A stretch of 64,000 bases of DNA from Leucoraja erinacea (taxonomy: Eukaryota). The notes beneath the pieces were generated by a model, which saw nothing but the letters and a program-made list of their open reading frames with translations, was not told the origin of the DNA and made no database searches. The position numbers were made by a program, and so were the translations under genes. The stretch is from the NCBI RefSeq assembly GCF_028641065.1, contig NC_073380.1, positions 35,030,001-35,094,000 of the forward strand. Reading direction: 5' to 3'. Below, piece by piece: positions 2,218-56,204 of this stretch (the stretch's first letter is position 1; each line of letters begins with the position of its first letter).

Positions 2218-2690
2218 GACTTTAGACTTTAACGATACAACACGGAAACAGGCCCTTCAGCCCACCCGAGTCCGCGCCGACCACCCCGTACACTAGCACT
2301 ATCGTACACATTAGGGGTAATTTACAATTTTATTTTATACAGAAGCCAATTAAAACACAAACCTGCACTTCTTTGGAGTGTGAGAGGAAACTGGAACACC
2401 CAGAGATAACTCTCGTGGTCACAGGGAGAAAGTACAAACTCCATACAGGAAGGTAGACAAAAATGATGGAAAAACTCGGCGGGTGAGGCAGCATCTATAG
2501 AGCGAAGAAATAGGCGACTTTTCGGGTCGACCAGAAATGTCACCTATTCCTTCGCTCCATAGATGCTGCCTCACCCGCTGAGTTTCTCCAGCATTTTTGT
2601 CTACCTTCAATTTTTCCAGCATCTGCAGTTCCTTCTTAAATAAAACTCCATACAGGAAGCACCTGGTGTCAGGATCGAACCAAGATTGGA
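2218..2690 (-). mobile_element. HE1-like tRNA-derived V-SINE, interrupted by a Penelope-derived insert
   Basis: B-box GGTTCGATCC, V-domain (GAGTTTGTAC..TTCTCCC..GTTTCCTC), CR1-like tail with (TAAAGTC)n. Confidence 0.8.
2449..2642 (+). mobile_element. Penelope-derived fold-back element
   Basis: ~80-bp inverted arms centred on GGGTCGACC (~2524-2532); 17-bp duplication AAACTCCATACAGGAAG at 2436-2452 and 2643-2659. Confidence 0.8.
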
Positions 2691-3729: not shown

Positions 3730-4460
3730 AAAGAGTTGCAGACAGCGTGGATGGCTGTCAAAGGAAATAGCATAGGATAGATCAATAACAAAAATGGGCA
3801 GATGGAGTTTAATCTGAGCAAATGTGAGGTGTTGCACTTTGGGAAGTCGAACGCAAGGGGAACGTACAGAGTTAATGGTAAGAGACTTAAAAGCATTGAT
3901 ATACAGAAGGATCCTGGGGTCTATGCCCATAGCTCACTGAAAGTGGCAACTCAAGTAGATACACTTGTAAAGACAGCATGATATGCTTGCTTTTATTGGT
4001 CGGGACATTGAGTAGAAGAGTTAGGAAGTCATGTTGCAGCTTTATAGGACTTTGTTAACCTGCATATGGACTACTGCTCGCAGTGCTGTTCAGCTTATTA
4101 CAGCTAGGATGTGGAGGCTTTGGAAAGGGTTCAAAAGTAGGTTATCAGAATGCTGCTTGGATTATAGGGCATTATCTACAAGAAGGGGTTGGTCAAACCT
4201 GGACTATTTTCTCTGGAATGTTAGATGCGAAGGGGTGACCTGATAGAAGAATATAAAATCATCAGCATCTTGGTGGTTGGTTCTTGTTTCTTGGTCCTCC
4301 AAAATATTCCAAATGGAATTTAAACTGGAGGTGGCAGAAGGTACACTTAAGCAAAAAATCAATAGGCTAGACAGTCGGATCCTTTCTGCCAGGTGGAAAT
4401 TTCAAGGACTAGTGGGCATAGTTTTAAGGTAGGAGAGGGAATGTTTAAAGGAGATGTGCA
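3730..4460 (+). mobile_element. Decayed CR1/HER1-like LINE 3' fragment containing a short antisense LINE-tail insert (4266-4340)
   Basis: WQMEFNLSKCEVLHFG-like and MLQLYRTL motifs; insert matches the tail at 15201-15262. Confidence 0.8.
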
Positions 4461-4519
4461 GAGATGCCTGGTATGCACTGGCAGGGGATGATGGTGGTAG
4501 AGGCAGATATGGAAGTGGG

Positions 4520-4790
4520 ATTTGAGGCATTGGCTACTTTTCTGAGGCAGCATAAAATGTAGATAGAATCAATGACGGAAGTCTGGACTGCAGTGGACAG
4601 GGCTACGACTACAACACCCTGCAATTTATTGGGGAGAGTTGTTCCCAAACAAGCTGTGATGCAACCCGACAATGTGTTTTCTATGGTTTAATAGTTTGTT
4701 TATTATCATGTGCACCAAGGTACAATGATTCAATTTTTGCATACAAATCAGTAAGATTATTGCCATACACAAGCACAATCCCCAGTTAAG
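4520..4790 (-). mobile_element. Decayed Rex1/Babar-like 3' fragment
   Basis: SGCITACLG...KLQGVV...DSIY...CLRKVAN. Confidence 0.6.
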
Positions 4791-5099
4791 TACATAATGC
4801 CCAGAGTCAGCCCACTGAGTCTCCATGTAAGTTACTAGGTTTTGCCGCCATTTCACAGTTCCAACTGCAACTAGAGTTCCAATTGGCCTGTGACAATCAT
4901 CATGTCCATCTGGTTGTCCTTTGAACCATTGTACCTTGTTGCCCAGCCATCTTCAACCTACATGCCTCAGGGCGCCTCCTGCAGCCAACCATTTTGAGCG
5001 TGGAAGGAAATACTCCCACCCTATAGTGTATCTTTAGGAGTTTGTCAGTCAGAGATGTGCTGAATTTCCTCAATCTTCTGAGGAGTTTTCACCACCTTG

Positions 5100-5290
5100 T
5101 CCACCTCTAACACCATCTTTAAGATATATGTATTTTTACCTCCGTCTCTAAGCTATGACCCCCTCCAGGGCCCTGCTACTTATTCTGCAGTCCTGTCCTT
5201 TAACTTACCAAACTTGTCCAAGTTAAATTCCATTAGCCATTCCTCAGCCCACTTTCTCAGTTGATCTAGATGATTTTCCATAATCCCCTC
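5100..5290 (-). mobile_element. CR1-like fragment
   Basis: LDQLRKWAEEWLMEFNLDK. Confidence 0.65.
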
Positions 5291-6618
5291 ACTGTGCCAA
5301 GGCATTTGTCTTAACGGAGGATGAGTTGGCTGAAATTGTCTTCCTTTATTCCTTAATACTCCAATAAAGCTCTGAAACTCAAACCCCAATTTCAAACAGT
5401 AATGCGATGGAGAACAGGAGGAAAATAGAGCGCCAAACCAATGGCAAATGACAACAACCCTTAATGCCAGCAAGATGTAGCTAATTATTGACCTCAGGAA
5501 GCAAAATGGTATACACAGCCCAATACATCGAGTGGAGGTGGTTGAGAACCGAGTTTCACACTTGATTAATGGTGCACTGACAGAATGTTCTCGTTTACCT
5601 GATTTAATCAAGGTACAGGAAAGAAACAAACAAATTTGCAATTATGCCACAGAATTTGAAATTTGGCTGTTTAACAAAGAATTATGGTGATTTAGAATCT
5701 GTTCTAAAGATTTTGCAACATTGTCCAGAAATATGAATTAATAGGGTGCAAAGAAATATTAACTCAATACCACTTGGCACAAATCATACCTAATATTTTG
5801 GACTCAAGCAGTTTTAATAGCATTCTCTGACTCTCGATATGGTTTTCAATTGGGATGAATGCCAAATGACAAACTCCCATTAAACCTTCAGACAATATTT
5901 TATTCTGCTAACATTGAGATTACAAGACAAAGTCAGTTCCATCTTCAGAAGACAGAAAGTTACAATTATTTGAAAATAGTAAGTCTTTTTCTGACAGTGT
6001 GGTTATATAGCCCATAGCTTAACTATCAGAGTAATCAAAATGATCAATATCAGACATTTCTACCTGTAAAGGATATGGCTATTAAATCTGTCAGATTATG
6101 TTACATTTTTTGTATAATGTGTATAAATACAACTTGACTTAAGTAGAACATCTCATGTGACTTGCTTCTAAAACAAAAACCTTTAGAGAACAGTAAATTA
6201 GTACTTAACTAATCAGTAATAGTGTGACAACTTCTTAATGATCAGCTAAACGAAGCACACCCACCAGCCTTCCAGTTTCCAACATTTAGAAAAACTAATA
6301 ATCTAACCAAGTTGGGAAGCATTGAAAATCTTGCTCCGAATAAAAAACAAGATCCAAGTGTCTTGCAAATAATTAAGTGCTCATTAACAAATGCAATTTT
6401 GTACTCGAGTACACTGAAATACACCATGAAAAAGGAACAATGATCGATCACCTTTAATTTATAGAAAAAATGGAGATATTAGTTCAGTTATTTCAAAATG
6501 CACGTGACACTTGCAGTCATAAGATTATGCAAATCTATAGATCAGAAACAAGTTTTAAAATTTAAATATTAACACCAGCTCAAAATTTTCTCCCACTCAC
6601 AACATCACTTCAAGTATT

Positions 6619-6745
6619 AGACAATAGGTGCAGGAGTAGGCCATACGGCCCTTCCAGCCAGCACCGCCATTCACTGTGATCATGGCTGATCATCCACAAT
6701 CAGTACCCCGTTCCTGCCTTCTCCCCATAACCCTTGACTATCTTT
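6619..6745 (-). mobile_element. CR1/HER1-like 3' tail
   Basis: Same terminal sequence (GGCCTACTCCTGCACCTATTGTCT) as the larger copies. Confidence 0.8.
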
Positions 6746-7099
6746 AACAGTTTGGTAACCATTACAGGGGAAATACTTAGTTTTCGATTTCACTTAATAG
6801 AAGACTGAACGATTTGCTAGGAAAAGAGAGCATCCTTACTACATTGTTGCACTAAAGGCAGCATCTTGCTAAGGAAAACCAGGTTAGAATCTGGAGAGGA
6901 CTATTTAACTAAATTTGTCAGAATTCAACATATATAGTGTGCCATCTAGTGTTTTTGCCTAACCGAAGTATTCAAGAGAGAAATGGATCAATTCTGGAGT
7001 TGAGAGAATAGTCACCAGAAATACAATACAGGTAGTTTTCACATGAGATATAAACCAAAAGTTTTCCTAATAGCTCATTATATATTCAAGACATTTTAA

Positions 7100-7290
7100 T
7101 ACTATTCAAAGAGTAAAATCTCTCAATGGCTTGCAGATTCATCATTTGCTGTGACTGAGACAATTGTGGCAATTCATAAGAACTGTGACTGAGATTAAGC
7201 AGTTTTCAAAATGGCTGCTCTATTTCTCTACATCAGTCACAGCCCTTTAAAGTGATTAACAGCATGTGAAGTGCTTTATGGGAATATTAT
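7100..7290 (+). mobile_element. Old DeuSINE (SacSINE1-like) 3' remnant
   Basis: AAAATGGCTGC..TTTC.CTACAT..CAGTCAC..GTGAAGTGCTTT pattern, similar to the copy at 50.3-50.7 kb. Confidence 0.45.
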
Positions 7291-7429
7291 GCAGGATTTA
7301 TTATGCGATTCAATCAGGTTCCAAAACAAGCAGTGTGGATAATCTTTTCCCATAGCTATATTCTACAATGATAGGTGGATCCAAGTGAAGCGGCTTTGAT
7401 TGGCAGATGAGTCAGTTAGTAGAGAGAAA

Positions 7430-7690
7430 CCCGACACTGGAGAATCTAATGTTCAACCCATTGGTTTTAGGCTGCTCAAAACAGAACATGGGGTGCTGTT
7501 CTACTAGTCTGTAGTGGAGGCAGCCATGGTCAGTGCAGGAATGGAAAGAGAGTTACAATGGCCAGCAACTGGCAGTTCCACAGATCCTGGAACACAAAAG
7601 AAAAGTGTTCGCCAAAGCAATCGTCTAATCTATGCTCATGAGGTTTATTTCTCAAGATTCTCGCATCTGTAGTCTTGTGTATTTAAATCG
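7430..7690 (-). mobile_element. Old Penelope-like endonuclease C-terminal remnant
   Basis: Reverse complement GAACAGCACCCCATGTTC...GGGTTGAACATTAGATTCTCC parallels 13558-13625. Confidence 0.55.
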
Positions 7691-8440
7691 TCTGGTGGGT
7701 AAAACAACCAGCTGGTAAGAATAGCAACCTCTGCACCCATGGGTGGTGGCAGCTAGCAAGAATGACTACACATCTGAGGAAATAAAATCTTGCTCGCCAC
7801 ACTTCTGAAGTGAGCTTTCAGGAGTGCTTGGAAGAGATCGGACGAGTTCAATTTTCTTTTCTCCTCTGGCTTGCAAGTTCACCAAAAAGATTAATTTGCC
7901 GATTTGTGCAACAGACAACGGGTGCTATTGCCACATGAACGTTATCTTCCATGAATTGACTGGGAGGAAATTGGTAGCAGTGGCTCACCTGGAAGAGTTT
8001 TATATTAAACATATTTGTGAGAAATAATTACATGATGCATTTAATTTGCAGCCAAATCTCTGGGAACAGTAAACTTTTTACATTGGAATGCCGTACGATG
8101 GAAGGCAAAATTCCTTGCACTTGAGTGTTTAATTTTACCTGTACCATTTTGGGGAGGAGCAGCAATGTAGATTAAGTTTCTTTCCAAAAACAGTTCTTAG
8201 ACACATCTAGCAAGTAGCTTATGACCAAGTTTGGCTGCAATGAAAGACTTTGGGCATGCACAGTCAAGAATAAAATCAAATCAAAATTAATTTTCTCCTA
8301 TTTTAACACCACTCTCGCCTCTAAATAAAACAAATTTGTCCTTGTATTTTTGCAGTGTCTTTGACAGGTCCATTTGGCTGTCATGTAAACCTTCTATACA
8401 GCTATTGGAGGAGAATTGCATATCTAGTCATTTACAGTAA

Positions 8441-11020
8441 TAAACATAGAAAATAGGTGCAGGTGGAGGTCCTTCTTTATATTCCTGGCCACCTTCCCTT
8501 CAGCCCATATTGCCCGATTTGTTTCCTTCTGTTGTCCTATGAAAGTTTCCCAATCCTCTGGCATCCGGCTGCTCTTTGCTGGGTTATACATCTTTTCTTT
8601 TAGTTTTATTCTATTCCTAACTTCTCTTGTCAGCCACGGTTGCCTCCTACTCCCCTTAGAATCGTTCTTCCTTTTTGGAATGAAATGATCCTGAGTCTTC
8701 CGGATTATGCCCAGAAATTCCTGCCATTGCTGTTCCACCGTCATTCCTGCTAGGTTCACTTTCCAGTCTACTTTGGCCAGCTCCCCTCTCATGCCTTCAT
8801 AGTCCCCTTTGTTCAACTGCATCACTGCCATTTCCGATTTAACGTTCTCCTTCTCAAATTGCAGACTAAAACTAATCATATTATGATCACTACCTCCAAG
8901 CGGTTCCTTTACCTCGAGTTCTCTTATCATATCTGGTTCATTGGACAACACTAAATCCAGAATTGCCTTTTCTCTGGTCAGCTCCATTACAAGCTGCTCT
9001 AAGAATCCATCTCGGAGGCATTCTACAAACTCTCTTTCTTGGGGTCCTGAACCAACTCGATTTTCCCAGTCTACCTGCATATTGAAATCCCCCATCACCA
9101 TTGTGGCATTACCTTTGTTGCATGCCAGTTTTAACTCCTGCTGCAACATACACCCTACATCCGGGCTACTATTTGGGGGTCTGTAGATAACACCAATTAT
9201 TGTCTTCTTGCCTTTGCAATTCCTCAACTCAATCCACAGTGACTCTACCTCGTCAGTCCCTATGTCTTCCCTCGCAAGGGACTAAATTTCATCCCTCACC
9301 AGCAGAGCTACCTCCCCCTCCTCTGCCCACCTGCCTGTCCTTTCTATAGGATGTATAACCCTGAATATTAAGTTCCCAGGCTTGATCCTTCTGCAGCCAC
9401 GTCTCAGTAATCCCCACAATGTCATATCTACCAACCTCTAACTGAGCCTCAAGCTCATCTACTTTACTTCTTATACTTCGCGCATTCATATACAATACTT
9501 TTAATTCCTTACGCGTCTCACCTTTCACATCGATCCCTATTACACTTGGCCGTACTCCTTTGTGAGCTTCCTTTCCCATTAATTCTGGGGTCATTAACCA
9601 TCCCTTTACTCCCTTTCCCTTTAACTCCATCCTCGACGATCCCATTTGACACCCCACCCTCCTTATTCAGTTTAAAACCACCCGTGAAGCAGTGGCAAAC
9701 CTGCCTGCCAGAATGCTGGTCCCCCACCTGTTAAGATGCCATCTGTCCTTTTTGTACAGTTCCCCCTTACTCCAAAACAGATTCCAGTGATCTAAGAATC
9801 TAAATCCCTGCCCCCGTTCCTCAGCCACATCCAGGTCCCGTATCTCCCTGTTCCTGCTCTCGCCAGCACGAGGAACTGGAAACAAACCGGAGATAACAAC
9901 CCTGGAGGTCCTGCTTTTCTGCATTTTCCCGAGCTCTCGAAAGTCACGCTGCAGAATATTCATCCCCTTCTATCCGACATCGTTTGTGCCGACATGCACT
10001 ATGATTTTCTGCACTCTGTCCCCGACACCCTGGATCCTGGCACCAGGAAGGCAGCACACCATTCTCGAATCCCATCTGTTGCCGCAGAAACCCCTGTCCG
10101 TACCTCTCACAATGGAGTCTCCAACTACAATGGCGTTGCCTGACGTTGGCCTCTTTGGTTTTGGCTTAACAGCCTTTTTTGCTTTGCATGCCAGTCCGCC
10201 GCTCAGTGTGATAACGACTTCTGTCCCGACAGCTTCTAAGTGGGTGAACCTGTTCTCAAGAGGTACAACACCCGGTGACCTGTGCATTCCAAGTTTCCCA
10301 CCTATTCTCACCGTCACCCACCTTCTCTCTTCCAGTACCTTAGGTGTAATAATCTTACTGCAGGACTTGTCGAGGAACGACTCAGCTTCTCGGACAAACC
10401 AGAGGTCATCCACTTGCTTCTCCAGTTCCCCAACACGGCCCTTCAGGAGCTGTACCTGGATGCACTTCTCACATTTGTAGCAGCCAGAGGCACCAGCAGT
10501 GTCATTGACCTCCCACATACTGCAAGCATCACATTGAATCAGCTTGGACGATAGATGGCGCAATGGGCTAAGTGTTCGGCTGGCAACCTGAAGGTGGCCG
10601 GTTCGAATCCTGCTTGGAGTGTGTACTGTCGTTGCGTCCTTGGGCAAGACACTTCACCTACCTTTGCCTGGGACTAGAGACGGAAATTAGCTACTGATTA
10701 GCTACAATCTCGCATATTTACATGCAAATGTTAATTAATATGCACTGTCCCTATAAACAAAACATTATTATTATTATTATTATTATTGACATCTCCTTCT
10801 GTCGTCTCTTCCTCTACAGCGTTTTAAGTAGCCTCCTCGCCAAAGACTCTCGAGCCAAAGACTCGCACTTTTCTCACAGGGCACTTCCCTCGCAAGGCCG
10901 CTCCCTAAGAGCCGTCCTGCTTATATTGACTGATAAATTGCCTAATTTACAAACCAAAATTCCTCAGTTTTAAACTGTTTTCCCCCTCTGACTCACTTCT
11001 AACTCTCCTCCCACTTGGGC
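8441..11020 (-). mobile_element. CR1-clade LINE with 5'UTR, ORF1 (Cys finger, coiled coil, SGNH esterase) and APE endonuclease; RT deleted, 3' tail retained
   Basis: ORF1 CDAC..CEKC, VVGDSIVRG, CLPGARI, VHVGTND; ORF2 YMNARSI, GITETWL, VIYRPP, MGDFN, LDLVL, GSDHN; frameshifted; tail CCTGCACCTATTTTCTATGTTT at 8463-8442. 5' boundary approximate. Confidence 0.92.
10552..10787 (+). mobile_element. tRNA-derived CORE-like SINE with (ATT)n tail inserted into LINE ORF1
   Basis: A-box TGGCGCAATGG, B-box GGTTCGAATCC, GTCCTTGGGCAAGACACTTCACCT core-like block, ATT repeat tail. Confidence 0.75.
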
Positions 11021-11183: not shown

Positions 11184-11296
11184 TTGTTTAAGAAGGAACT
11201 GCAGATGCTGGAAAATAGAAGCTAGACAAAAATGCTGGAGAAACTCAGGGGGTGAGGCCTCACCCGCTGAGTTTCTCCAGCATTTTTGTCTACCTT
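11184..11296 (-). mobile_element. Penelope-derived fold-back element
   Basis: ~39-bp arms centred on AGG|CCT (11255-11260); TSD AG(T/C)TTCTTAATTA at 11171-11183 and 11297-11309. Confidence 0.8.
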
Positions 11297-11813
11297 AGCT
11301 TCTTAATTAAATCACTTTCACAAAGATGTGAATGTTAATATAGAAAAGTAACCCCTTTCAAAAAAATGAACAGGGGAATCTTTCCTCCAGTCATATTTTC
11401 ATATCCAGGATTAAGGACTAGCCCAAAATATATCTTATAATTTTGTTCCCATTGTACATGCAGTTTTCATTGGAGTATGTAGAGTCAATGGGGAAAGGCA
11501 CAGCACATCATCAAATAGTTGTGGAAAAAATATTTTAAAATCACTGAACGATTTGGTTTCCAACATGACTAATGACGGCTAACAGCAGTTAGCATAATCC
11601 AGTTACCTGATCAACAGAAAATGTTGACTGGCTGCATTTTATGTTTACTGTTTCCAAAAGTACATATATGTAGGCTCAAGGGATGGACTTTGTGATGACT
11701 TTCATGCAGTACAAGTTTGTCATATCAGTACATTGTATTTTGAAAATGTTTAAGAAACTAATTTTCTTCACCAATTTTAAGTTGAAATTATATTATTAAA
11801 TAATTATTAATAA

Positions 11814-13010
11814 CTGGACGAACCAGGTGGCTATGTGAGGATTATGTTCTTCGACTTTTCAAGTGCGTTCAACACCATCCAACCCCCGATTCTGAAAGGC
11901 AAGCTTAAGAATAAGATGGGGGTGGACTCCACCTTTATCTCCTGGAATACAACTACCTGATGGGTTGACCACAGTTTGTTAAACTGCGGGACTGTGTTTC
12001 CGGGACAGTGGTGTGCAATGTTGGAGCCCCACAGGGAACGGTTCTGGCCCCATTCCTCTTCACCCGGTATACTGCAGACTTCAATTATACGTCTGACACA
12101 TGCCACGCACAGAAATATTCAGATGACACAGCGATTGTGGCATGTGTAAGGAACGGGCAGGAGGAGGAATACAGGGACTTGACCAGTGCCTTCTGTGCCT
12201 GGAGTGAAGAGAACTGTCTCATCCTGAATACAGCCAAGACTAAAGAGATGGTGGTTAACTTTGGCAGGACCAAGCTCCCCCTTCAGCCGGTCAACGCTGC
12301 AGGGGCTGACATTGAGGTGGTGCAGACATATAAATACCTTGGAGTGCACCTTGATAACAAACCAGACTAGTCTGCCAACTCTGACGCCCTCTACAAAAAA
12401 GGCCAGAGCAAACTCTTTTTCCTCAGAAGGCTCAAATCCTTCAATGTGTGTAATGATATGCTGTACATGTTTTACAATACTGTGGTTGCAAGTGTCATTT
12501 TTTACGCTGTTGTCTGCTGGGGCAACAGCATCACTGCGAAAAACAACAAGAAGCTTGACAAACTGGTAAAACAGGCTAGCTCAGTGCTGGAGGAGAGAGT
12601 GGACTCTGGGATGGATGTGCTTGAGAGGCGTATGAGGCGCAAGGTGCAGGTCATCCTGGAAAACCCCAGGCACCCCCTCCATGTAATTCTGGAGAGTCAA
12701 AAAAGCACTCGGAACAACAACCGGCTCCTCTCCCTGCGTTGTAGAACGGATCGGTCCAGGAGATCCTTCACCCCTGCAGCCATTAGATTTTATAATACAG
12801 ACCGGTAGCCTGTAGGGGGATGCGTTTTTGCATTGTTAATTATTGTTTTTTTTAAGTATTTATTGCTCTCAGGTATTGTCCACATTGTATTTTATGGATT
12901 TTCTGTCTGCTTTCGTTTAGAATGTGCGGGTTAGTTGGTTGGGGACTTATGGACATCTGAATTTCCCCGAGGGGATCAATAAAGTATTTATTATTATTAT
13001 TATTATTATT
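11814..13010 (+). mobile_element. 5'-truncated Rex1/Babar LINE (RT and C-terminus)
   Basis: VRIMFFDFSSAFNTIQP, GAPQGTVLAPFLF, KYSDD, YKYLGVHLDNK, RSFTPAAIRFYN; tail GGGATCAATAAAGT-(ATT)n; few disruptions. Confidence 0.92.
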
Positions 13011-13391
13011 ATTAATAAAACTCACAACATACAGATATTCTTCGAATGGAGAAAAATATATAAAACAGAGCTCTCACAACTTTTTTTCTCTGATGCCAGC
13101 CGGGCAACCTAGGCAACTTCTACGGTTGCCAAATGACGGCGTGCGATAATGTGCTCGAATGAAGTGCGTAGTACCAGTCGGAATTATGCTCAATGAAGCA
13201 TTCACATATTATCTCTGCTTCAAATAAAGTCAAACTAAACATATTCACCAATCAAGACATGATATACCACAATGACATGCAGCAAAATTACAAAACAGTA
13301 TCTCAACTCTTTTTACATGTTGCAATGAATGCAATATCTATTATTTCTTTCCACTTCCAAACAAAAATGTGGTTGGATTATTCAGCGTATG

Positions 13392-13835
13392 ATCAACCTC
13401 GGTGAGACCAAACGCAGGCTTGGCAATTGCTTCGCACAACAACACGCTGATCAATCACACGGGTGGCTCAGCATTTCAACTCCCCCTCCCATTCCGAATC
13501 TGACCTTTCTGTCCTAGGCCTCCTACATGGCCAGAGTGAGGCCCACCGTAAATTCGAGAAACAGCACCTCATATTTCGTTTGGGTAGCTTACATCCCAGC
13601 GATATGAACATTGGCTTCTCCAATTTCAGGTAGTCCTTGCTTTCTCCCTCCTTCCACTCCCATTCCCAGCTCTGCCACAGCCTACCGTCTTAGCCTCTTC
13701 CTTTCTTTCCCCCCCCCCCCCCCCCCCTGCCGCCGACATCAGTCTGAAGAAGGGTCTCGACCCGAAACATCGACCTATTCCTTTGCTCCATTGATGCTGG
13801 GTCACCCGCTGATTTTCTCCAGTTTTGTCTACCAC
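13392..13835 (+). mobile_element. Penelope-like element 3' end: GIY-YIG endonuclease C-terminus plus terminal repeat
   Basis: LGETKRRLG..FA, VAQHFNSPSHS, EKQHLIFRLGSLHP..MNI.FSNFR*; followed by pyrimidine tract and the repeat shared with the fold-back elements. Confidence 0.88.
13741..13776 (+). ncRNA. Minimal hammerhead-ribozyme-like motif in the Penelope terminal repeat
   Basis: CUGAAGA (13744-13750), A, GGGUC/GACCC stem II, GAAAC, AUC (GUC in the copy at ~18929). Stem I is very short; activity unproven. Confidence 0.65.
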
Positions 13836-14062
13836 CATTCACACAAGTTCTGTTATCCCACTATCCTCACCCACTCCCTGCACATTGGGGGCAATTTTAC
13901 AGAGACAAGTTAACCTACAAAGCCAATGCGTCTTTGGGATGTGGGAGGAAACCCACATGCTTGCCGAGGGAATGTGCAAATTCAACACAGATAATGCCCG
14001 AGGACAGGATCAAACACAGATCTCTGTTGTGTAAAACAGCAAGTCTACCAGTTGTGCCACTA
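13836..14062 (-). mobile_element. Decayed HE1-like V-SINE
   Basis: GTTTCCTCCCACATCCCAAAGAC V-domain remnant. Confidence 0.65.
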
Positions 14063-14199
14063 TATTTAGTTTTCCAACACACAATTATAGGTTGATAACT
14101 TTGGTTACTAAAAAAAACGATCCATTTTCAGTCTTAAATCTCGAAGTCACGCTATGTCCCCCTTTAAAGCTACTGTATATTTTAATTCAGTTCAAGACA

Positions 14200-14985
14200 A
14201 TGGGGCAGTACATTGGACATAAAGTTGCTGCCTAAAAGTGCCAGAGACCCGGAATTGATCCTGAATATGTGTGCTGTCTGTATGGTTTGCTCATTTTCCC
14301 TTTGATCGCATGGGTTTTCTCCGGGTGCTCTTGTTTCCTTCCACATTCCAAAGATGTGCAGGAACCTTTTTCAGACCCAACCTAAAACGTTATATTTTCC
14401 TTTTGTCCAGAAATTGTCTGACCAGTTCAGTTACTCCAGATTTGTGTGTCTATCTTTGGTTTCAACCAGCATCTGCAGTTCCTTCCTACACACACACACG
14501 ATACTATACGATAGAACTTTATTAATCCCATGAGAGTGTGTGCATGTGCGTGTGTATATACAGTGCCAGTGTCCAGGGAAGAGCGTATTGAAGAGGCTAA
14601 TGAGAGGAAATGCTCAAAGTACCAGGAACTGGTCTCCACCATGTGCCAGGACAACGGCTGAGCCCATAGAGGTGGGCTATAGAGGCTTTGCAAGACGCTC
14701 ATTCTGCAAAGTCCTCAACCAGTTGGGCATTACGGGGCTGGCAAAGAAGAGGGCCATTCAATCCGCAAGCAAAGCCGCAGAAAAAGCCACTAGGTGCCTT
14801 TGGATTAAAAGAGCTGATCCGTGAGCGGTTGCTGCTGGGACGCAAGTCGGGCTCCCTGAAATATATAAAGAATAAAACACTCTTGACTCACGTCACTAAT
14901 GTGTGGGATAGAACGAGTGTACGGGTGATCGGCATGGAATCACCGAAGGGCCTGTTTCTGCGCTGTATCTTAAAATTAAACTAAA
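14200..14985 (+). mobile_element. HE1-like V-SINE interrupted by a Penelope-derived piece (14365-14490) and a HERO fragment
   Basis: tRNA-like head, GGGTTTTCTCCGGGTGCTC V-domain, tail GAAGGGCCTGTTTCTGCGCTGTATCT-TAAA. Confidence 0.7.
14562..14855 (+). mobile_element. HERO-like (RLE-type non-LTR retrotransposon) 3' fragment
   Basis: EERIEEANERKCSKYQEL...EPIEVGYRGFARRSFCKVLNQLGITG.AKKRAIQSAS.AAEKATR.LWIKRADP, typical of the HERO restriction-like endonuclease end. Confidence 0.8.
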
Positions 14986-15004
14986 TACACTACAACCAGA
15001 GGGA

Positions 15005-15068
15005 GTCTAAAGAAGGGTCTCTACCCAAAATGTCACCCAATTTATTCTATCCAGAGATGCTGGCTGCT
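15005..15068 (+). mobile_element. Penelope terminal-repeat remnant with decayed hammerhead motif
   Basis: GTCTAAAGAAGGGTCTCTACCCAAAATGTCACC. Confidence 0.6.
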
Positions 15069-15077
15069 CCATGCAGT

Positions 15078-15262
15078 GCCCCCACACAATTAAAGCATGG
15101 AATAGTCTTCACCCTGTCATAGTTATCCAACCAGACGAAACTAAATTTAAGGTCGCTCTTTTTTCCCTAAGAACCCTTTTTTGCTTAAATCCACCCTACA
15201 CCACCTCCAGTTTAAATTCCATTCGGAATATATTTGGAGAATTAGGAAACCAAGAAGCAAGA
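15078..15262 (+). mobile_element. CR1/L2-group LINE 3' end
   Basis: PHTIKAWNSLHP..FKVAL C-terminus and (CCAAGAA)-type tail; second copy at 4266-4340. Confidence 0.6.
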
Positions 15263-17453
15263 GTTACTCCAGGGAGTTACTCCAGCTCGAGGGAGTGATT
15301 CTGTGTTGGGTTTCAGCGGTCGCGGCGAGGCAGCGACCGGGCAGCAATGGGGGCCAGATCTCCCACAATGCAAAGGGAGGGAGAAAGTGCCCGCCGCCGA
15401 CCAGTGGCCGTGGCAGTGTGCATGTGCAGGGTGGCCGCTAATGTGCTGGCCGTGGTTGTGCGCATGTGCAGGGGAGGATGTGCTGGCCGTGCTAGTGCGC
15501 ATGTGCAGGCCATGCCAGCGGATGAGGAGCGGCCAGAGAGGGGACACTCGGACACGGATGCCGGGCGGACAGAGAGTGACAGAGAGAGGGATAGAGAGGG
15601 GGGCCAAGCCGGGCAAAATGACAGGCTTTTAGGTTGCCCGGCGGGACTTTAGGTGGCCATTGGAAACCGGGCAACCGTTCATTTTGAGCCCTGTAAAAGA
15701 GAATTAGGTCTAAACCATTTTAAAAATAGGATAATTTCAAAAACCCATTCTGCAACAGATTCACAAAACGAAACAAACTACTAAACTACTTAAAAAAAAC
15801 AGACACCCAATACTGCTCATTCTGAGCGTGCATAGGCATCACTAAAGTAAAAGATTAGAAAATAAAATATATAAATTCAGAATTTTACCATATTATAGGA
15901 TTATAATATCTCAAATTCATTAAGTGCCTCACTTCACTTATCATTGAAATAGGACATTTCAATGCACAACATTAATTAAAATTAACATATTGTTGAATTG
16001 TAAAATGGAAGTTACTCTCGACAGTATAACAAAACTGTTAACATTTAATTATTAGAAAGATTGTAAATTTTTTCAATTAAGAAACTTTTTGAAGACAGTG
16101 AGAAATTAGCACATGCCTAAACCAGTCACACCAATAACCTGCACCAAAATAAGAAATCCCACATGCAGAAGAAAATAACGGTCAGAAAACATCTGTCCTA
16201 CCGACAGGTTTAATATGACTTTCTATTGATTTTAAATTAAGCTGCATGCACGTGCACACCTTTCCTGTTTCGTTGATGTTTGAACTTTGAGATTCAAATG
16301 TGTTTTAGACAATAGACAATAGGAGCAGGAGTAGGCCATTTGGCACCTCGAGCCAGCACCACCACTCATAGTGATCATGGCTGATCATCCACCTTCAGTA
16401 CCCAACATCCTGCCTCCAGCGTTTCCACTCCCTGAATGATCTTACGTTTCAATAAGATCCCCTCTCAGCCTTCTAAATTCCAGAATACACAAGTCCAGCC
16501 GCTACATTCTATCAACATATAACAGTCCCGCCACCTTGGGAATTAACCTCGTGGACCTACGCTGCACTCCCTCATAGCAAGAATGTCCTTCCAACTGCAG
16601 AAGGACCTTTTTGCTCCTATACTCAACTCCTCTTGTTATACAGGCCAACATGCCATTAGCTTTCTTCACTGCCTGCTGTACCCGCATGCTTACTTTCAGT
16701 GACTGATGAACAAGGATACCCAGATCTCATTGTACTTTCCTTTTTCCTAACTTGACACCATTCAGATAATAATCTGCCTTCCTGTTCTTGCCTCACATTT
16801 ATCCACATTAAACTGCATCTGCCATGCATCTGCCCACTCACCAAACCTGTCCAAGTCACCCTGCATCCTCATAGCAGCCTCCTCACAGTTCACAATGCCA
16901 CCCAGCTTTGTGTCATCTGCAATTTTGCTAATGGCACTTTTTATCCCTTCATCTAAATCATTAATGTATATTGTAAATAGCTACGGTCCCAGCACGGAGC
17001 TTTGCCGGACCCCACTAGTCACTGCCTGCCATTCTGAAAAGGACCGTTAATCCCTACTCTGTTTCCCATCTGCTAACCAATTTTCTATCCAGGTCAAAAC
17101 CCTTCCACCAATACGATGTGCTCTAATTTTGCCCACTAATCTCCTATGTGGGACCTTATCAAATGTTTTCTGAAAGTCCAGGTACACTACATCCACTGGC
17201 TTCTCCCATGCCCATTTTCCTAGTTACACCCTCAAAAAAATCCAGAAGATTAGTCGAGCATGATTTCCCCCTCATAAATCCATGCTGACTCGAACCGATC
17301 CTGATACTGCTATCCAAATATGCCGCTGTTTCATCTTTTATAAATGACTCCAGCATCTTCCCCACCACCGATGTCTGACTAACTGGTCTATAATTCCATT
17401 TTCTCTCTCCCACTTTCCTTAAAATGTGGGATAACATTAGCTACCCTCCAATC

Positions 17454-18849: not shown

Positions 18850-19345
18850 TTGCTTGAAATCTGAAACAGAAAATGCTCGAAATATTCAACAGGTCCATTG
18901 AGAGAGAAGAATCGCCTCGACCCGAAACGTCACCCATTCATTCTCTCCAGAGATGCTGCCTGTCCTGCTGAGTCACTCCAGCTTTTTGTGCCTATCTTCA
19001 ACCTAATTAACATTACAGGTTGCATAGGAACAGACTAGTTCTGGTACAAACCGGAAAGATAGCCTATTCAATGGCCTTTCTTACATCATGAAAGCTGAAT
19101 TCTAATGGAGACACAAGGAACTGCAGTTGTGGCTTTAAAAAAAAAAAACACAAAATGCTGATGTAACTCAGTGGATCAGGCAACGTCTGGAAAACATGGA
19201 CAGGCAACATTTTGGGTCGGGACCCTTATTCAATTTGGTTCTAATACAAGGTCATCAACCTGTAATGTTAAATCAATTTCCTTCCCCCACTGATGCTGCA
19301 TGATTTTCTGAGCATTTCTAGTACTTGTTAGATTTTCATTCACTA
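18850..19345. mobile_element. Cluster of Penelope terminal-repeat remnants on both strands
   Basis: CTCGACCCGAAACGTCACC at ~18916-18934 (+); copy at 19108-19232 (-). Confidence 0.7.
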
Positions 19346-24092: not shown

Positions 24093-25733
24093 CTGTTGGG
24101 CAGACACTTGCTGCGAAGCGGCCTTGGGTGATGAATGCTGTGACTGTGCCCATGGCTGATGCTGATGAGGTGAAGGAGAAGTTTGATGATGCACCGTTGG
24201 ATGCTGTTTCACAGGTGGACAAGTTGGCAACTGAGGCTGAAAAGGCTGATTTGGGTGCTGTTGGCCAGACATAATGCGTTCTTGCATCACTTGATCTGCA
24301 TGATTCCCACTGGGTCCCAGTGCGCCGACTGGTCTTGGAAGACTCCCAATATCCCTTGGCACAGAAGGGTTCATGTACTGTGGTGTCTGCATGCTTCTGG
24401 GACCCATGCTCCTCTGTCCAAGTCCCATGGTACCTGGGGATTGATGTGGCTGTTGCGGCAGGGGCATGTTTGGATAGCTTCCAACTTCAAGCTGCATTCC
24501 AGCACTGCCTGGCCTAACCTGGGGTGGAGGGGTACCTGCTGGGTTATTTATAGCTTTCATGGGTGACATGGGAGATGGAGAAGCATATGTTCCCTGAGAC
24601 TGCGTTGGGTGCATAGTTTGTGCATTAATTTGGTTAAGTGGACCACTTGGATGTATAGGCTGCTGGTGCATTAATCCTTGGCTAGTTCCAGCTGGGAATC
24701 CCACTGTATTTGGATAGCGGGGTATTGCCTGATTCACAGATGGGTTATTATTAAGGCCTAGGTTTTGATTGATCCCTGTATTACTGTTAACTAATCCCTG
24801 ATTAATGTTACTATAAGGATATTGTGAATACTGCCCTGAGCTACTTACAGACTGTGAAGGTACTGCCTGGCTACGTGAAGTAAAATTTAAGTTTTGCTGC
24901 CTGCTACTGGCTTGCTGAGAAGGACTGGGGGAGAATCTAGGACTGTGAGCAATGGAATCTCCATGGAGAGTATTAGGCAGAGGGGGGTGGGGATGGTATT
25001 GCTGTGATGGAGTGTGACGTAAAGAAGGGCCCATGTTGGGGGTTTGCTGCGGCATGCGGGATAAGTGACCTGGCCCTGAAGTACCCATGAAAGGATTTCC
25101 CTGACTGAGGGCCTCTTGTGCCTGAGTGAATTGGTTCACCCGCTGTTGTTGAGACTGGTTGTGCTGTTGCAAAGAGTAATCACTACGTGTCAGGTAATTC
25201 CCCATCTGTTGCATATGCTGAGCATGCCCCTGAGGTGGTGGCTGTTGTTGCTGCTGTTGCTGGAAGGCAGGTCGGGTCTGGTCTGGCACCTGGACTGCAC
25301 GTGGTCCCCACATGGAGCTGCTGTCCACAAACTGCTGTCCACATCTTTCATTCTGCATAGCTGGGTATACACCCATCTGAGCTCCACTGTGAGGGACTGG
25401 TGGAACTGAGGGATTATGGTATTGTGAATGAGGCGATGCCATGCCATTCCCAGGAGTATTACCAATCATTCGGTTAGGCTGATCTACCAGATGAATTTTC
25501 TGTTGTTCAAACGGACCAAAATGATCATAATGAGTCAGCTTAGTTTGCGTCTGAGTAGGTGGGGGGTGATGGAGGGGAGACTGCATGGAGCCAAATCCTT
25601 GATCCATGGGTAGTTGTTGCCCAAGGGCATTCACTGGATTCTCTGAAAAACCACATTCGCCCAGACCTTCAAGCCCTTCACTGAAAATGTTCCCATCATC
25701 ACCAAACAAACTCAGCATACCAGGATCTGCCAT
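24093..25733 (-). CDS. CHD7: CHD7 first coding exon (exon 2), 547 codons of the Q/P-rich N-terminus; continues by splicing beyond the window
   Basis: Translation [28 protein letters not shown]...[11 protein letters not shown]...HSPRFSP...[15 protein letters not shown] matches the vertebrate CHD7 N-terminus as I recall it. Kozak-like GAAGATGG start. Phase-0 donor CAG|GTGAGT (plus strand actcac 24087-24092); the last 11 aa of the ORF-track entry are intronic read-through. Confidence 0.97.
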
Positions 25734-30300: not shown

Positions 30301-31589
30301 TCTACCTTAAAACTCAACTGGATACTGGGATGCCTTTTTGACCGTTAATTGTATATAAAATGCAGCGATTACATTGTGGAATTTACACAACTACATTCTC
30401 TTCATCATCCCCAAGTCCCCTCTTATTACTCAACTAATCCTGGGCCTCAGCTTCTATCACAAGGTAAAGCATTCAACAAGTTCAGACAATGGAGCTTTCT
30501 TGGAAATCTCAATCCTTCCCATTTTCTGCCTGATGCCTACCAGAAATATTCAAGTACTAAAACATATGCAGCCTTGGCTCAACATTAAAACTCACTCACC
30601 CACTTCAACATTAAATGATATTTATGACATTTCTTGTCCTTGAACCAACCCAATAAAACCAAATGGAAACTACACACAGCCCATTAATAGACAAAAATAT
30701 CAGTACCCGTAACAAACGGTAGTCAACATTCATGTCGCCGAGAATTTTTTTTTTCTCTTAAATCATATTGAAAACTTACTTTCAATGTCATCAACAGTTT
30801 CATATGAAAAGTATATTCTAGAAGCTTCAAGCTTAAAATATTGTAAATGTCAAATTCATATAAATCTATCAAAGACGATGACAAATCACATGATACCCAA
30901 TGTTCATATTACAAACTATTACATGAATATATACTCACGTAGAATGCTTTTTTAAACATTTCCAAAATGAGCTGTGTAAATCTTGTGCCGAAGAAACTCA
31001 GTAGGTTAGGCAACTGATGCTATCTGACCCACTGAATTCCTCCAGAACTTTGTGTATTGCTCAAGACTAGCATCTGCAGTTCATGTATCACCTTGTCAAA
31101 ATTTGTGGGAAAATAAGCCAACAAACAGTATGCAATTTCAGGAACCAAAACGGAACAATGTTAAGTTACCACAATGATGCATTTGGCTTAAATTCTGCAG
31201 AAAATAGAATATTTACATTTGACATTTGCCAGTTTGATCAACCTTTTTTGTTCACACACTCAAATCAAGTTAGCGAATAGGTTAACAGATTAACATTTTT
31301 AAACTCAAATTAAATATTTTCAGTGCAATGATTCATCACAATTGAAATGCAACCAATTAAAAAAAAATCTGGATCTATTTCTTAAAACTGAAAAAAAAAA
31401 ATGCATACAATTTTAATTGAATACACCGCTGACACCAAATTCCCCCCCCAAAAAAAGGTGGGGAGTTCTTTTGCAAGTACAGCTAAATATGAAAAGCCAA
31501 CATCAATTTATTAACTGATGACCGAAGCCTATAACTTCAAATTCATTATTTCTTGTCATTTAATGTCACGTTCTTCTTTTCTGAGTGTA

Positions 31590-32199: not shown

Positions 32200-33600
32200 C
32201 CAGAGTAGATTTGGAGAGGATAGGGCATGCATAAAAACTAATTAATTTTTTTAGAACTGTGTAAAGTGCTAGACAGCGGCAGAACAACAAATGTTTATGG
32301 AACTTAAAAGGAATTCCGAAGGACATTAGATACGTTCTTTATCAACGAGTCAACTTATTTAACGTACCATCATTAAGTCCTTTTAACGATGGTACGTTAT
32401 TGCCTTGTTTAGGAAATTAGCTGAATAACAGGAGGAAGAATAAAGATAACAGGCAGCAACTCAAGATATCAGAATATGACACATGGGTGGCTTGCAAGAA
32501 TTTGCCTTGCTCTCTCAAATTCTGACTAGTTATAAACAAGATAGGCACTGTGGAACTCTATGCTTCCTAAGAGAGAAATCGGGAGATTTGATATTTATGA
32601 ACATAGATTAAAATGTCATGGACAGGTACAAAGGAAAAGGGCAGTGATGATAAGTTATACAATGCAAAACCTAGGTTTAATGATTCATTCGAGTGACCAC
32701 ACCAGATGATACAATTTGCCTTGGAAAGTATACAATATAGATTTATCAGACACCTGGACTCTTGGGAGTTAAATTATGAGGAGATTAAAAAGATTATTGC
32801 TTAATATCCAGGTATTAAGAGAAACTGCCGATGAAAAGACAACATGCCCTTGGGGCAAGTGTGAAACTCCGAAATACTTATTGAAAGGAAATTTATACAT
32901 GGTCAATTATTAAATGTAATAATGAGGTTGGAAGGTTGGCTATAGTTTTACAAATTTCTGATTAGGATTATCTAGATCAGCATTCAGACAAAATTAGAGG
33001 TAGTCGATTTAGAGGTGATGCTAGGAACAGCTCTTCACAACAGTAGTAGAATAAATCAAACATTCTCTCCAGGTTGCCACAAATGTATAATCTCACACTT
33101 AGTAACTTTGGTGGAAAAGATTCATGTAAAGGGCCTGTCCCACTTTCCCAAAATGCTCACAAATTCTCCTGAGTTTTCCCCTTGATTCAAACTCAGAGAA
33201 TGTTCATAAGGGGTCCGTAGATATATTGCAGCGGCTCGTTATGTCAGCCGTAGATAGCCGGGGCATTAAATGTCGCAATTATTCTCCTCCCGACTATCTT
33301 TTTACTCGTGGACATTTTTTGTCATGCTCGAAAAAATGTCCCAACTTACCCGATGCCCCGAGTACATATGGCTGACATAACCAGCCGCTACGATATATCT
33401 ACGGACTCCTACCGACCCGTTACGAACATTCTCCAAGTTTGAATCAAGGGGAAAACTCAGGAGAATTTGTAAGCAGCCCAGGAAAGTGGGACAGGCCCTT
33501 AAGTATTATGGAACCATGGCAGATAGAATGGAGAGATTAGCTACAATCCAATTGGACAGCAGAGTAGTCATGGGACCAACTGATTAGGAACTGAGGGGGA
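32200..33600 (+). mobile_element. Very old CR1-like remnants
   Basis: Degenerate CR1 RT/3' phrases (CCTTGGAAAGTATACAATATAGATTTATCAGA, TTATGAGGAGATTA). Confidence 0.45.
33130..33499. mobile_element. PIF/Harbinger-like MITE
   Basis: TIR AGGGCCTGTCCCACTTTCC, ~140-bp imperfect inverted arms, TAA TSD (33127-33129, 33500-33502). Confidence 0.85.
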
Positions 33601-45149: not shown

Positions 45150-45474
45150 GAAACATATAAGATTGTTAAGGGCTTGGACACGCTAGAGGCAGGAAACATG
45201 TTCCCGATGTTGGGGGAGTCCAGAACCAGGGGCCACAGTTTAAGAATAAGGGGTAAGCCATTTAGAACGGAGACAAGGAAACACTTTTTCTCAGAGAGTT
45301 GTGAGTCTGTGGAATTCTCTGCCTCAGAGGGCGGTGGAGACCGGTTCTCTGGATACTTTCAAGAGAGCTAGATATGGCTCTTAAAGATATACTGATTGGG
45401 GATGATCAGCCATGATCACATTAAATGGCTGTGCTGGCTCGAAGGGCCTACTCCTGCACCTATTGTCTATTGTC
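45150..45474 (+). mobile_element. CR1/HER1-like 3' end
   Basis: MFPMLGESRTRGHSLRIRG; tail CTATTGT. Confidence 0.9.
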
Positions 45475-45994
45475 AAAAACATAAAATTTTCATGTACTAG
45501 TAGCAAAATAAACAATCTCAAAAATTATGATCTCTTGATTAATATACAAATCACATGAATATTAGCATAGCTTTACACAGATTAAGGAGAAAAGAGGTGA
45601 AAGGATTCAGTGGAAAGAAGCAGCATTTCTTAAACAATGTCACTAGAACATTATTCAAAGGATAGAGACTGATGCCCAATTTGGAATGGAGGAACATCGT
45701 AATTGCAATGATTCAGAGTTACTCTGGTTCAGTCTTGAATTGGGTTGGGTTGTGGAATGAAGGCACAGGACCACAAAGAAATCCTGAGGAGATAGTATTA
45801 ACATTTTTGAACAAATGAAACAGTTGGTTCAATTTGGTTGAACAATTTCCCCAACCAAAAAAACAAGGATGGAAAGCAACAACAAAAACAGGTGAGAGAC
45901 CTAACAAAATAAAAAACAGAAATAAACTAACTAAACAGAAGGGCCAAATGGAGAGTGCGTCCCACCCCCCAAAAAAAATCCTTAGTCACACAAT

Positions 45995-55900: not shown

Positions 55901-55965
55901 GTTTACAAAAATCTTTCGCTCTTCAATGGGTAGGAGGAGGGGGAGGATACAACATAGAAATGTGT

Positions 55966-56181
55966 AGGAAGGAACTGTGCAGATGCTGGTTTACACTGAA
56001 GATAGACACGAAAAATGCTGGAGTAACTCAGCGGGACAGGCAGCATCTCTGGATGGGAAGGAGTGGGTGACGCTTTGGGTTTTCGACCCTTCTGCAGTCA
56101 CTCCAGCATTAATGTCTATATTGGTGTAACCCAGCATCTGCAATTCCCGCCTCAACATCACCCATTCTGTCTGTCCAGAAA
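55966..56181 (-). mobile_element. Penelope-derived fold-back element upstream of the CHD7 promoter
   Basis: Terminal repeat with decayed hammerhead (56066-56097) followed by inverted partial copies; 12-bp TSD ATAGAAATGTGT (55954-55965, 56182-56193). Confidence 0.8.
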
Positions 56182-56204
56182 ATAGAAATGTGTCCTGTGC
56201 GACG

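What the first reader, a model, noticed from the sequence alone, without database searches (positions are those of the whole stretch)
13392..13835. Hammerhead-ribozyme motif in a Penelope terminal repeat that recurs across the locus
Seen: CTGAAGA-A-GGGTC-TC-GACCC-GAAAC-ATC directly after a GIY-YIG C-terminus; related, more decayed copies near 2521, 14375, 15007, 18916, 19205 (-) and 56066 (-). The copies together give CUGAAGA..GAAACGUC with a palindromic ACGU. Known: Penelope-like elements carry minimal type I hammerheads thought to cleave as dimers. Inference: a protein-free, ribozyme-bearing derivative family has amplified in this genome (retrozyme-like); minus-strand copies would be sense within CHD7 pre-mRNA.
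Basis: partly seen in the sequence, partly recalled or inferred. Interest (0 to 1): 0.7.

Follow-up and report, generated by a model that had tools for sequence, protein, structure and literature searches.

The report
Dead Penelope hammerhead riding DNA transposon
This is a broken copy of a known self-cutting RNA motif from the end of a Penelope jumping gene; it sits, with about a thousand siblings, as a passenger inside a cut-and-paste DNA transposon, so it likely does not cut RNA and is likely not a ribozyme-driven element of its own.

Summary
The motif is real and belongs to a huge family: 16,121 exact 28-base cores (control 0) and roughly 800,000 relatives, in the 3' end repeat of a Neptune-type Penelope element that encodes RT and GIY-YIG. 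Such minimal hammerheads are published, and this scan already reported the family on other DNA of this genome. The copy named in the finding is broken (ACGU reads ACAU; helix I is shifted), and none of 11 window matches has an intact core. New here: this copy and the 14375 and 15007 copies are cargo of one non-autonomous DNA transposon (13066-15693) with terminal inverted repeats and 5-bp target duplications (18 of 23 within one mismatch; 0.45 expected), likely hAT5. The cargo junction occurs 1,058 times, the empty form 1,191 times, and the cargo decays neutrally. Longer members hold two hammerheads about 715 bases apart, but that junction stays inside the transposon (28 of 30). No tandem array with complete cores was found in 600 kb, so the retrozyme reading fails. 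The copy is antisense to CHD7. Ordinary, with a modest twist.

The parts
13061..13065 (+). Left 5-bp target-site duplication (TAAAA)
   Evidence: Same 5 bases at 15694-15698; 5-bp TSD in 11 of 23 complete members exactly, 18 of 23 within one mismatch
13066..13399 (+). Arm of the non-autonomous DNA transposon, with terminal inverted repeat at 13066-13073; likely the 3' end of a hAT transposase unit on the minus strand
   Evidence: Sharp shared boundary in genomic matches; covered by 12-14 of 14 members without this cargo; found beside a hAT C-terminal remnant in 14 of 20 loci
13400..13633 (+). Frameshifted C-terminal remnant of a Penelope GIY-YIG endonuclease, starting inside the YIG motif; stop codon at 13631-13633
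   Evidence: Translations; junction counted 1,058 times; codon positions decay equally
13634..13743 (+). Pyrimidine-rich 3' UTR of the Penelope element, ending in TCAGT (13739-13743), where short solo copies begin
13744..13771 (+). Minimal type I hammerhead motif, broken in this copy: core 13744-13750, stem II 13752-13763, GAAA 13764-13767, A in place of G at 13769, presumptive cut after 13771
13772..13834 (+). Rest of the Penelope end repeat; here a recombinant of two tandem stubs (solo form)
   Evidence: Diagnostic sites switch from stub 1 to stub 2 at differing places in 11 solo members
13836..14370 (+). Shared cargo: two SINE-like repeat pieces and AT-rich spacer (SINE family name not tested)
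   Evidence: 13836-14050 present in 16 of 22 other complete members; pieces are genome-wide repeats
14380..14485 (+).
   Evidence: present with its left flank in 8 of 22 other members
14590..14860 (+). Later insertion private to this copy
   Evidence: 0 of 22 other complete members hold it
15004..15084 (+). Penelope stub with core position G5 changed to A (the 15007 copy); cargo, already broken in the founder
   Evidence: All 22 members in which the script's pattern found this stub read A at that place; present with flank in 17 of 22 complete members
15600..15693 (+). Other end of the DNA transposon, with terminal inverted repeat
   Evidence: shared with 14 of 14 members without this cargo
15694..15698 (+). 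Right 5-bp target-site duplication (TAAAA)
2453..2642 (.). Head-to-head pair of Penelope end stubs joined inside stem II (no CUGAAGA), with a 17-bp target duplication; independent retro-insertion (the 2521 copy)
11185..11310 (.). Second head-to-head pair, joined downstream of the hammerhead; no core
18906..19013 (+). Solo stub lacking CUGA
19117..19232 (-). Solo stub, sense in CHD7 intron, core broken at positions 3, 8 and 12
31016..31083 (+). Old stub, downstream part only
55973..56099 (-). Solo stub with broken core, upstream of the likely CHD7 first exon
24093..25733 (-). Context: first coding exon of CHD7; the transposon lies in the following intron
   Evidence: 68-71% identity to named CHD7 proteins; no later exon found in the window

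Best explanation
The stretch is the broken 3' end of a Penelope retrotransposon with its minimal hammerhead motif, and it sits as a passenger inside a 2.6-kb non-autonomous DNA transposon (13066-15693, likely hAT5) that spread this cargo to about a thousand sites, where it is likely inert. Steps. (1, shown) The motif is the end repeat of Penelope elements with RT and GIY-YIG. (2, inferred) One member of the DNA-transposon family swapped its interior for a piece of ordinary repeat-rich DNA that held two tandem Penelope stubs, SINE-like pieces and two further stubs, probably by template switching during gap repair. (3, shown by inverted repeats and distinct 5-bp duplications; enzyme inferred) A hAT transposase then moved the composite as DNA. 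(4, shown) Recombination between the two stubs repeatedly gave solo forms such as this one. (5, shown) Core and coding remnant decayed at the neutral rate. (6, inferred) The other 99% or so of the family are retro-inserted stubs, mostly 90-130 bases, solo or head to head, made by the Penelope enzyme from uncut RNA. (7, inferred) In the parent element the hammerhead would cut weakly, as a dimer or with help from the element's protein.
For: Shared left boundary in the best genomic matches. Both ends found in 23 of 40 elements examined; TSD of 5 bases exact in 11, within one mismatch in 18; cross-pair expectation 0.00 and 0.45; no signal at 7-10 bases. In a second set chosen by the left end alone, 15 of 20 were complete and 9 had an exact 5-bp TSD. 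Left end 2,002 matches, control 5; cargo junction 1,058, control 2; empty junction 1,191, control 0. hAT dimerisation remnant: Pfam match in 8 of 10 aligned copies, arm beside it in 14 of 20 loci, best named relatives ZNF862-like. hAT5 is defined by 5-bp TSDs (PMC12730594 and PMC9004415, passages). Neutral decay in 40 carriers: codon positions 0.031, 0.031, 0.032; core 9 of 395 against 279 of 8,859 non-CpG sites, Fisher P 0.46. Penelope bodies: 105,490 first-look candidates, 601-aa frame with RVT_1 and a CX4CX2C linker, relatives in sharks and rays at 59-67%. Solo stubs: sequence falls to background 5-6 bases before the core in 69 copies; 16 of 69 have an exact duplication of 8 or more bases, 2.0 when shuffled; no excess of starts at the cut site (8 of 218 at HMM positions 31-35). 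In the anole Penelope, uncut RNA is the main template and the ribozyme needs the protein (PMC11167929, parts 1-2 read).
Against: No autonomous element with these ends was found, so the hAT5 label rests on TSD length and a C-terminal remnant that could itself be captured. 5 of 23 and 4 of 15 complete members do not show the 5-bp TSD within one mismatch; 2 of 23 and 1 of 15 fit 6 bases exactly. 17 of 40 elements lacked one or both ends within the DNA fetched. The 40 carriers were the best matches to the window copy, so their low divergence (3.1% against 11.7% for the window copy) is biased. The source locus of the cargo was not identified, so capture against nested insertion with deletion is open. 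No full-length Penelope (5' repeat plus whole frame) was seen among 20 loci. About 84,000 cores genome-wide still look intact (23 in 600 kb), so cutting elsewhere is not excluded. The 'unique upstream' class may include old subfamilies whose upstream part was not sampled.
Confidence: 0.88

Rival explanations
1. Retrozyme: a protein-free family that multiplies through hammerhead-processed RNA circles, for instance the 715-base unit between the two hammerheads of the longer carriers.
For: Most copies carry no coding sequence (25 of 30 exact-core copies have under 10 bases of this Penelope body upstream). 24 of 40 carriers keep the junction between two tandem stubs, counted 378 times. Retrozymes were reported in one cartilaginous fish and tied to Penelope end repeats (bioRxiv 10.64898/2026.07.22.740005, parts 1-2 and passages).
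Against: 0 of 306 tandem arrays in 600 kb contain a complete core. The tandem junction has the transposon arm upstream in 28 of 30 loci, so it did not spread on its own; both cores are intact in 0 of 30 (13 first only, 4 second only). Solo stubs keep the part upstream of the cut site, which a cut RNA would lose.
Confidence: 0.04
2. The Penelope stub inserted into the DNA transposon by retrotransposition (nested insertion with loss of the interior), not by capture of a genomic segment. The later history is the same.
For: Other Penelope stubs did insert into this backbone and were then multiplied: one head-to-head pair at backbone base 183 is shared by 4 of 30 left-end loci, with a short duplication.
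Against: The backbone does not resume after the stub; everything between 13400 and about 15600 is foreign to the empty members and looks like a patchwork of several repeat types.
Confidence: 0.25
3. The motif has been kept for a job in CHD7 RNA processing.
For: Intronic hammerheads conserved in amniote genes are known (PMC6155905, passages). One stub (19117-19232) is sense in the intron.
Against: The finding's copy is antisense; no window copy has an intact core; the window copy is more decayed than its siblings.
Confidence: 0.01
4. The family motif is a ribozyme in appearance only: in this lineage it no longer cuts and is kept as promoter or priming sequence of the Penelope repeat.
For: Helix I has only two adjacent pairs (U-A or U.G, then G-C), then two mismatches. 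Predicted folds prefer other pairings, and two copies are predicted to pair through stem II (-16.9 kcal/mol) far more than through ACGU (-3.1). Core mutants do not impair insertion in the anole element (PMC11167929).
Against: All core positions and stem II pairing are kept across subfamilies (U-A to U.G at the loop-closing pair in 20 of 298). Two-pair helices I occur in published Penelope hammerheads (PMC4209133 supplement). The anole motif cuts when protein is present.
Confidence: 0.35

Closest known systems
Minimal type I hammerheads in end repeats of metazoan Penelope-like elements (Cervera and De la Pena 2014, PMC4209133; read: main text parts 1-2 of 4, supplement parts 1-2 of 3)
   Same: CUGANGA, an extra base, G-C opening stem II, GAAA, palindromic two bases, UH; place in the end repeat; mostly single dispersed motifs; some pairs on opposite strands
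   Different: No shark or ray is in that alignment; helix I here is two weak pairs; copy number is far higher (about 84,000 intact-looking cores against 4,000-9,000 in coelacanth and frog, by different methods)
Endonuclease-bearing Penelope-like elements, Neptune type (PMC8557442 and PMC3846280, passages; PMC11167929, parts 1-2 of 4)
   Same: RT followed by GIY-YIG, cysteine linker, partial tandems, head-to-head inverted repeats, solo repeats, two 3' end points about 30 bases apart
   Different: No full-length copy recovered here; no tree built, so Neptune against Nematis is not settled
hAT5 DNA transposons (PMC12730594 and PMC9004415, passages; the Repbase reports were not read)
   Same: Short terminal inverted repeats, 5-bp target duplications, hAT dimerisation remnant
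   Different: Only non-autonomous copies were found; no sequence comparison with named hAT5 families was possible
Multicopy Pack-TIRs of animals (Tan et al. 2021, PMC8277862, passages)
   Same: Foreign DNA between the ends of a DNA transposon, multiplied with distinct target duplications
   Different: The cargo is other transposons' debris, not a host gene piece; about 1,000 copies against a few; source locus not found
Non-LTR retrozymes (bioRxiv 10.64898/2026.07.22.740005, parts 1-2 of 5; PMC7229834, search listing only)
   Same: Type I hammerhead related to Penelope end repeats, no protein in most copies
   Different: No tandem arrays of complete motifs; copies include the sequence before the cut site; ends match Penelope by-products

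Membership tests
Minimal type I hammerhead (family majority) | Core CUGANGA, GAAA and NUH | tested here: met
   Column profile of 298 anchored copies (the anchor allows 4 changes, so it favours the core); 16,121 exact cores
Minimal type I hammerhead (family majority) | Stem II opened by G-C after an extra base | tested here: met
   Four pairs kept in 91-94% of 298 copies; only one-sided changes, no compensatory pair
Minimal type I hammerhead (family majority) | Palindromic positions 15.2-16.2 for dimer helix III | tested here: met
   ACGU is the majority
Minimal type I hammerhead (family majority) | Helix I next to the cut site | tested here: inconclusive
   Two pairs only: 83 of 120 descriptor hits have exactly 2, 10 have 3-4; published cases with 2 pairs are G-C pairs
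Minimal type I hammerhead (window copy) | Intact palindrome and helix I | tested here: not met
   ACAU, and an extra base after the cut site breaks the second pair; fails the descriptor
Minimal type I hammerhead | Self-cleavage | not testable with these tools
   Needs an in vitro assay
Non-LTR retrozyme | Tandem array with at least two consecutive units holding complete motifs | tested here: not met
   0 of 306 arrays in 600 kb; 0 of 30 two-stub carriers have both cores intact. Only 0.03% of the genome was scanned, so rare arrays elsewhere are not excluded
Non-LTR retrozyme | Spreads as its own unit | tested here: not met
   Two-stub junction lies beside the transposon arm in 28 of 30 loci
Non-LTR retrozyme | Circular RNA intermediate | not testable with these tools
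   Only a poly(A) run of another organism was available
EN+ Penelope-like element, Neptune type | RT followed by C-terminal GIY-YIG in one frame | tested here: met
   601-aa frame in L112, RVT_1 E 1.4e-4, GIY-YIG E 2.5e-4 in L011, both below the curated cut-offs; relatives carry both domains
EN+ Penelope-like element, Neptune type | CX2-5CxxC linker between RT and endonuclease | tested here: met
   CX4CX2C in the frames; definition in PMC8557442
EN+ Penelope-like element, Neptune type | Partial tandems, inverted and solo end repeats | tested here: met
   Random sample of 74 anchored copies: 27 solo, 23 inverted arms, 24 with shared or pyrimidine-rich upstream
EN+ Penelope-like element, Neptune type | Placement in an RT tree | not tested
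   No named reference set on hand
hAT5 DNA transposon | Terminal inverted repeats | tested here: met
   8-base inverted ends in 23 of 40 and 15 of 20 elements
hAT5 DNA transposon | 5-bp target-site duplication | tested here: met
   11 of 23 exact, 18 within one mismatch; 9 of 15 exact
hAT5 DNA transposon | hAT transposase encoded within these ends | tested here: inconclusive
   C-terminal remnant about 1 kb inside the arm in 14 of 20 loci; no full transposase with these ends
hAT5 DNA transposon | Sequence kinship with named hAT5 families | not testable with these tools
   Repbase and Dfam not available
Multicopy Pack-TIR | Foreign interior multiplied with distinct TSDs | tested here: met
Multicopy Pack-TIR | Identifiable parent locus without transposon ends | not tested
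   Searches return only the 40 best of about 1,000 copies

The most novel reading that the evidence does not exclude
A DNA transposon captured a pair of intact hammerheads about 715 bases apart and planted the pair at several hundred sites; where host transcription reads through the pair, the two motifs fold together and release a short RNA or circle, so that a cut-and-paste element became a vehicle for retrozyme precursors.
Probability: 0.04. Interest if true: 0.6.

Novelty: new member of a known kind. Interest (0 to 1): 0.24.

Why it matters
Little for biology of CHD7 or ribozymes: the copy is broken. Two modest uses. First, it shows that counting hammerhead motifs mixes routes: about 1,000 carriers (up to four stubs each, near 0.5% of the family) were multiplied as DNA, which can mimic a conserved 'retrozyme' subfamily with a tandem. 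Second, these carriers are a neutral control: a founder sequence copied without any RNA step, against which decay of hammerhead cores in retro-inserted copies can be measured to ask whether cutting is selected in the Penelope cycle, a question left open in the papers read.

Tried and rejected
Rfam scan of the window to E 10: no hammerhead. Pfam on the window remnant in three frames: nothing. Search for an autonomous partner: none of 30 top hAT-domain loci and none of 17 further loci carried these ends; a word-based search with the remnant found nothing, the profile search did. Sequencing runs: no RNA holder listed. A poly(A) run of another organism laid on 12800-16200 shows reads on both strands at the motif, 92% running on into unlike sequence, and no pile of ends at the cut site; it reports the whole family, not this locus, and is no evidence either way. 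The same run on 44001-58000 was too thin to place the CHD7 start. Pattern scan of metagenome contigs: 0. A subfamily with a longer helix I was sought in 1.83 Mb of fetched DNA and not found. TCAGT before the core could be an initiator or a splice acceptor (the initiator match is recalled; Penelope initiators and an intron near the motif are described in PMC2377424 and PMC3846280, passages, and PMC4209133); no spliced joint was listed, and the two were not told apart. Paper searches for this family in sharks, rays or skates, and for Penelope pieces carried by non-autonomous DNA transposons, gave no listing that describes it (listings only, open-access library only; Repbase and Dfam not searched). 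The anole paper's sequence file and figures could not be read, so its helix I was not compared. PMC6004678 had no passage on hAT5.

Full report
Observation. The motif is at 13744-13771, 110 bases after the stop codon of a frameshifted GIY-YIG remnant. The family is far beyond chance: 16,121 exact 28-base cores against 0 for the reversed pattern, and 218 hits in 600 kb taken at round positions on large chromosomes against 0 in the reversed control. That scales to roughly 800,000, with the two arms of a palindrome counted apart. Rfam has no model that finds it.

What the motif is. Upstream of many copies lies a Penelope body: 105,490 first-look candidates for the endonuclease region, variable 5' truncation in 20 loci chosen for long frames, and a 601-aa frame with RT, a CX4CX2C linker and GIY-YIG. 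Its named relatives are shark and ray proteins at 59-67% identity. The linker points to the Neptune type (PMC8557442, passages); no tree was built and no full-length copy was seen. The majority sequence fits the published minimal hammerhead (PMC4209133): full core, four-pair stem II round a four-base loop, palindromic ACGU. Helix I has two adjacent pairs only (83 of 120 descriptor hits), and folding predicts that other pairings win. Activity is therefore uncertain even for perfect copies. About 84,000 cores look intact (23 in 600 kb, 1 in the reversed control); none of them is in the window. The finding's copy reads ACAU and has an extra base after the cut site.

The surprise: the copy is cargo. 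The 29 best genomic matches fetched share the flank upstream of the Penelope part, most of them back to one sharp end, and the window has a matching inverted end at 15693 with TAAAA on both sides. Of 40 elements examined, 23 had both ends within the DNA fetched; 11 had an exact 5-base duplication and 18 were within one mismatch, against 0.00 and 0.45 for mismatched pairs; 2 fit 6 bases, none 7-10. A second set picked by the left end alone gave 9 exact of 15 complete, from 20 fetched. The left end occurs 2,002 times (control 5). Members without this cargo show where the backbone stops: the Penelope part starts at 13400. The cargo junction occurs 1,058 times (control 2) and the empty junction 1,191 times (control 0); 7 of the first 30 exact left ends on one chromosome carry the junction. 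The interior from 13400 to about 15600 is foreign to the empty members and includes the 14375 and 15007 stubs, found with their flanks in 8 and 17 of 22 other complete members. The 15007 stub has the same core change in all 22 members in which it was picked up, so it was multiplied broken.

Which transposon. Some members keep the C-terminal end of a hAT transposase on the opposite strand about 1 kb inside the arm: Pfam dimerisation domain in 8 of 10 aligned copies, arm present in 14 of 20 such loci, nearest named proteins ZNF862-like. Five-base duplications define hAT5 (PMC12730594; PMC9004415; passages). No autonomous copy with these ends turned up, so the label is likely, not shown.

Tandem and solo forms. 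Of 40 carriers, 24 keep a junction into a second, longer Penelope stub, which puts two hammerheads about 715 bases apart; 11, including the window, are solo; 5 are rearranged. Diagnostic sites switch from stub 1 to stub 2 at different places in the solo forms, so the collapse happened more than once. The tandem is the only retrozyme-like feature. Its junction occurs 378 times, has the transposon arm upstream in 28 of 30 loci, and has both cores intact in 0 of 30. Decay is neutral: codon positions 0.031, 0.031, 0.032; core 9 of 395 against 279 of 8,859 non-CpG sites, P 0.46. These carriers were the best matches to the window copy, so absolute divergence is biased low.

The rest of the family. 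Carriers account for perhaps 0.5% of copies. In the evenly chosen sample, 27 of 74 anchored copies are solo, 23 are arms of head-to-head pairs and 24 have shared or pyrimidine-rich upstream sequence. Solo copies lose similarity 5-6 bases before the core, end near 90 or 124 bases after it, and 16 of 69 have an exact duplication of 8 or more bases against 2.0 when shuffled. Starts do not pile up at the cut site, so the templates were likely uncut. Head-to-head centres cluster on a short palindrome at the start of the core (11 of 29 resolved, of 51). Inverted, solo and tailed repeats are described for Penelope elements (PMC3846280, passages), and the anole element starts reverse transcription inside its RNA, extends both strands and uses uncut RNA (PMC11167929). 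None of 306 tandem arrays held a complete core; three held a 64-66-base unit without the first half. Earlier notes of this scan reach the same reading on other DNA; I had formed it before looking and count them as leads only. The listings I saw did not mention this cargo family.

CHD7. The first coding exon is on the minus strand, so the finding's copy is antisense in the next intron. The sense stub at 19117-19232 has a broken core. The 56066 stub lies about 250 bases upstream of a CCAAT box and candidate first exon ending at 55286; this start site is inferred from sequence.

Verdict. A real, known kind of motif; this copy is inert cargo of a likely hAT5 element. New member of known kinds; interest 0.24. 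Supplements that could not be read (anole sequence file and figures, bioRxiv tables) may bear on helix I and on which cartilaginous fish was screened.

Noticed in passing
L228, L236, L239, L246 (left-end loci, backbone base about 183): A second Penelope cargo on the same transposon: one head-to-head hammerhead pair shared by 4 of 30 loci; a further stub at backbone base 242 in L230.
   Followed up: partly
window 14590-14860: Insertion private to this copy (0 of 22 others); looks like the C-terminal end of an R2/Hero-type retrotransposon frame (recalled likeness, untested).
   Followed up: no
window 11960-13014: Decayed non-LTR reverse-transcriptase frame ending in (TTA)n just left of the transposon; Rex1-like by recall.
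   Followed up: no
window 33129-35574: LTR-type integrase remnant and a 92-base inverted repeat pair at 33129-33500.
   Followed up: no
L191:5580-5778, L191:9780-9971, L192:6810-6998: 64-66-base tandem units that begin at GAAAC and lack the first half of the core.
   Followed up: partly
family-wide, 5 bases before the core: TCAG-T-CTGA is itself a palindrome and the commonest centre of head-to-head pairs; it also resembles an initiator and a splice acceptor (recalled).
   Followed up: partly
family-wide: The purine run after CUGA can pair with the pyrimidine run after the cut site, a predicted inactive fold in 2 of 3 exact-core copies tested.
   Followed up: no
window 55286-55720 (minus strand): CpG-rich candidate promoter and first exon of CHD7 with CCAAT box and a strong splice donor.
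   Followed up: partly
window 48831-48900: 33-base near-perfect inverted repeat, possibly a small transposon.
   Followed up: no
protein records P0003, P0049: Ray gene models named after host genes match this Penelope frame at 66%, suggesting exonised or mis-annotated copies.
   Followed up: no
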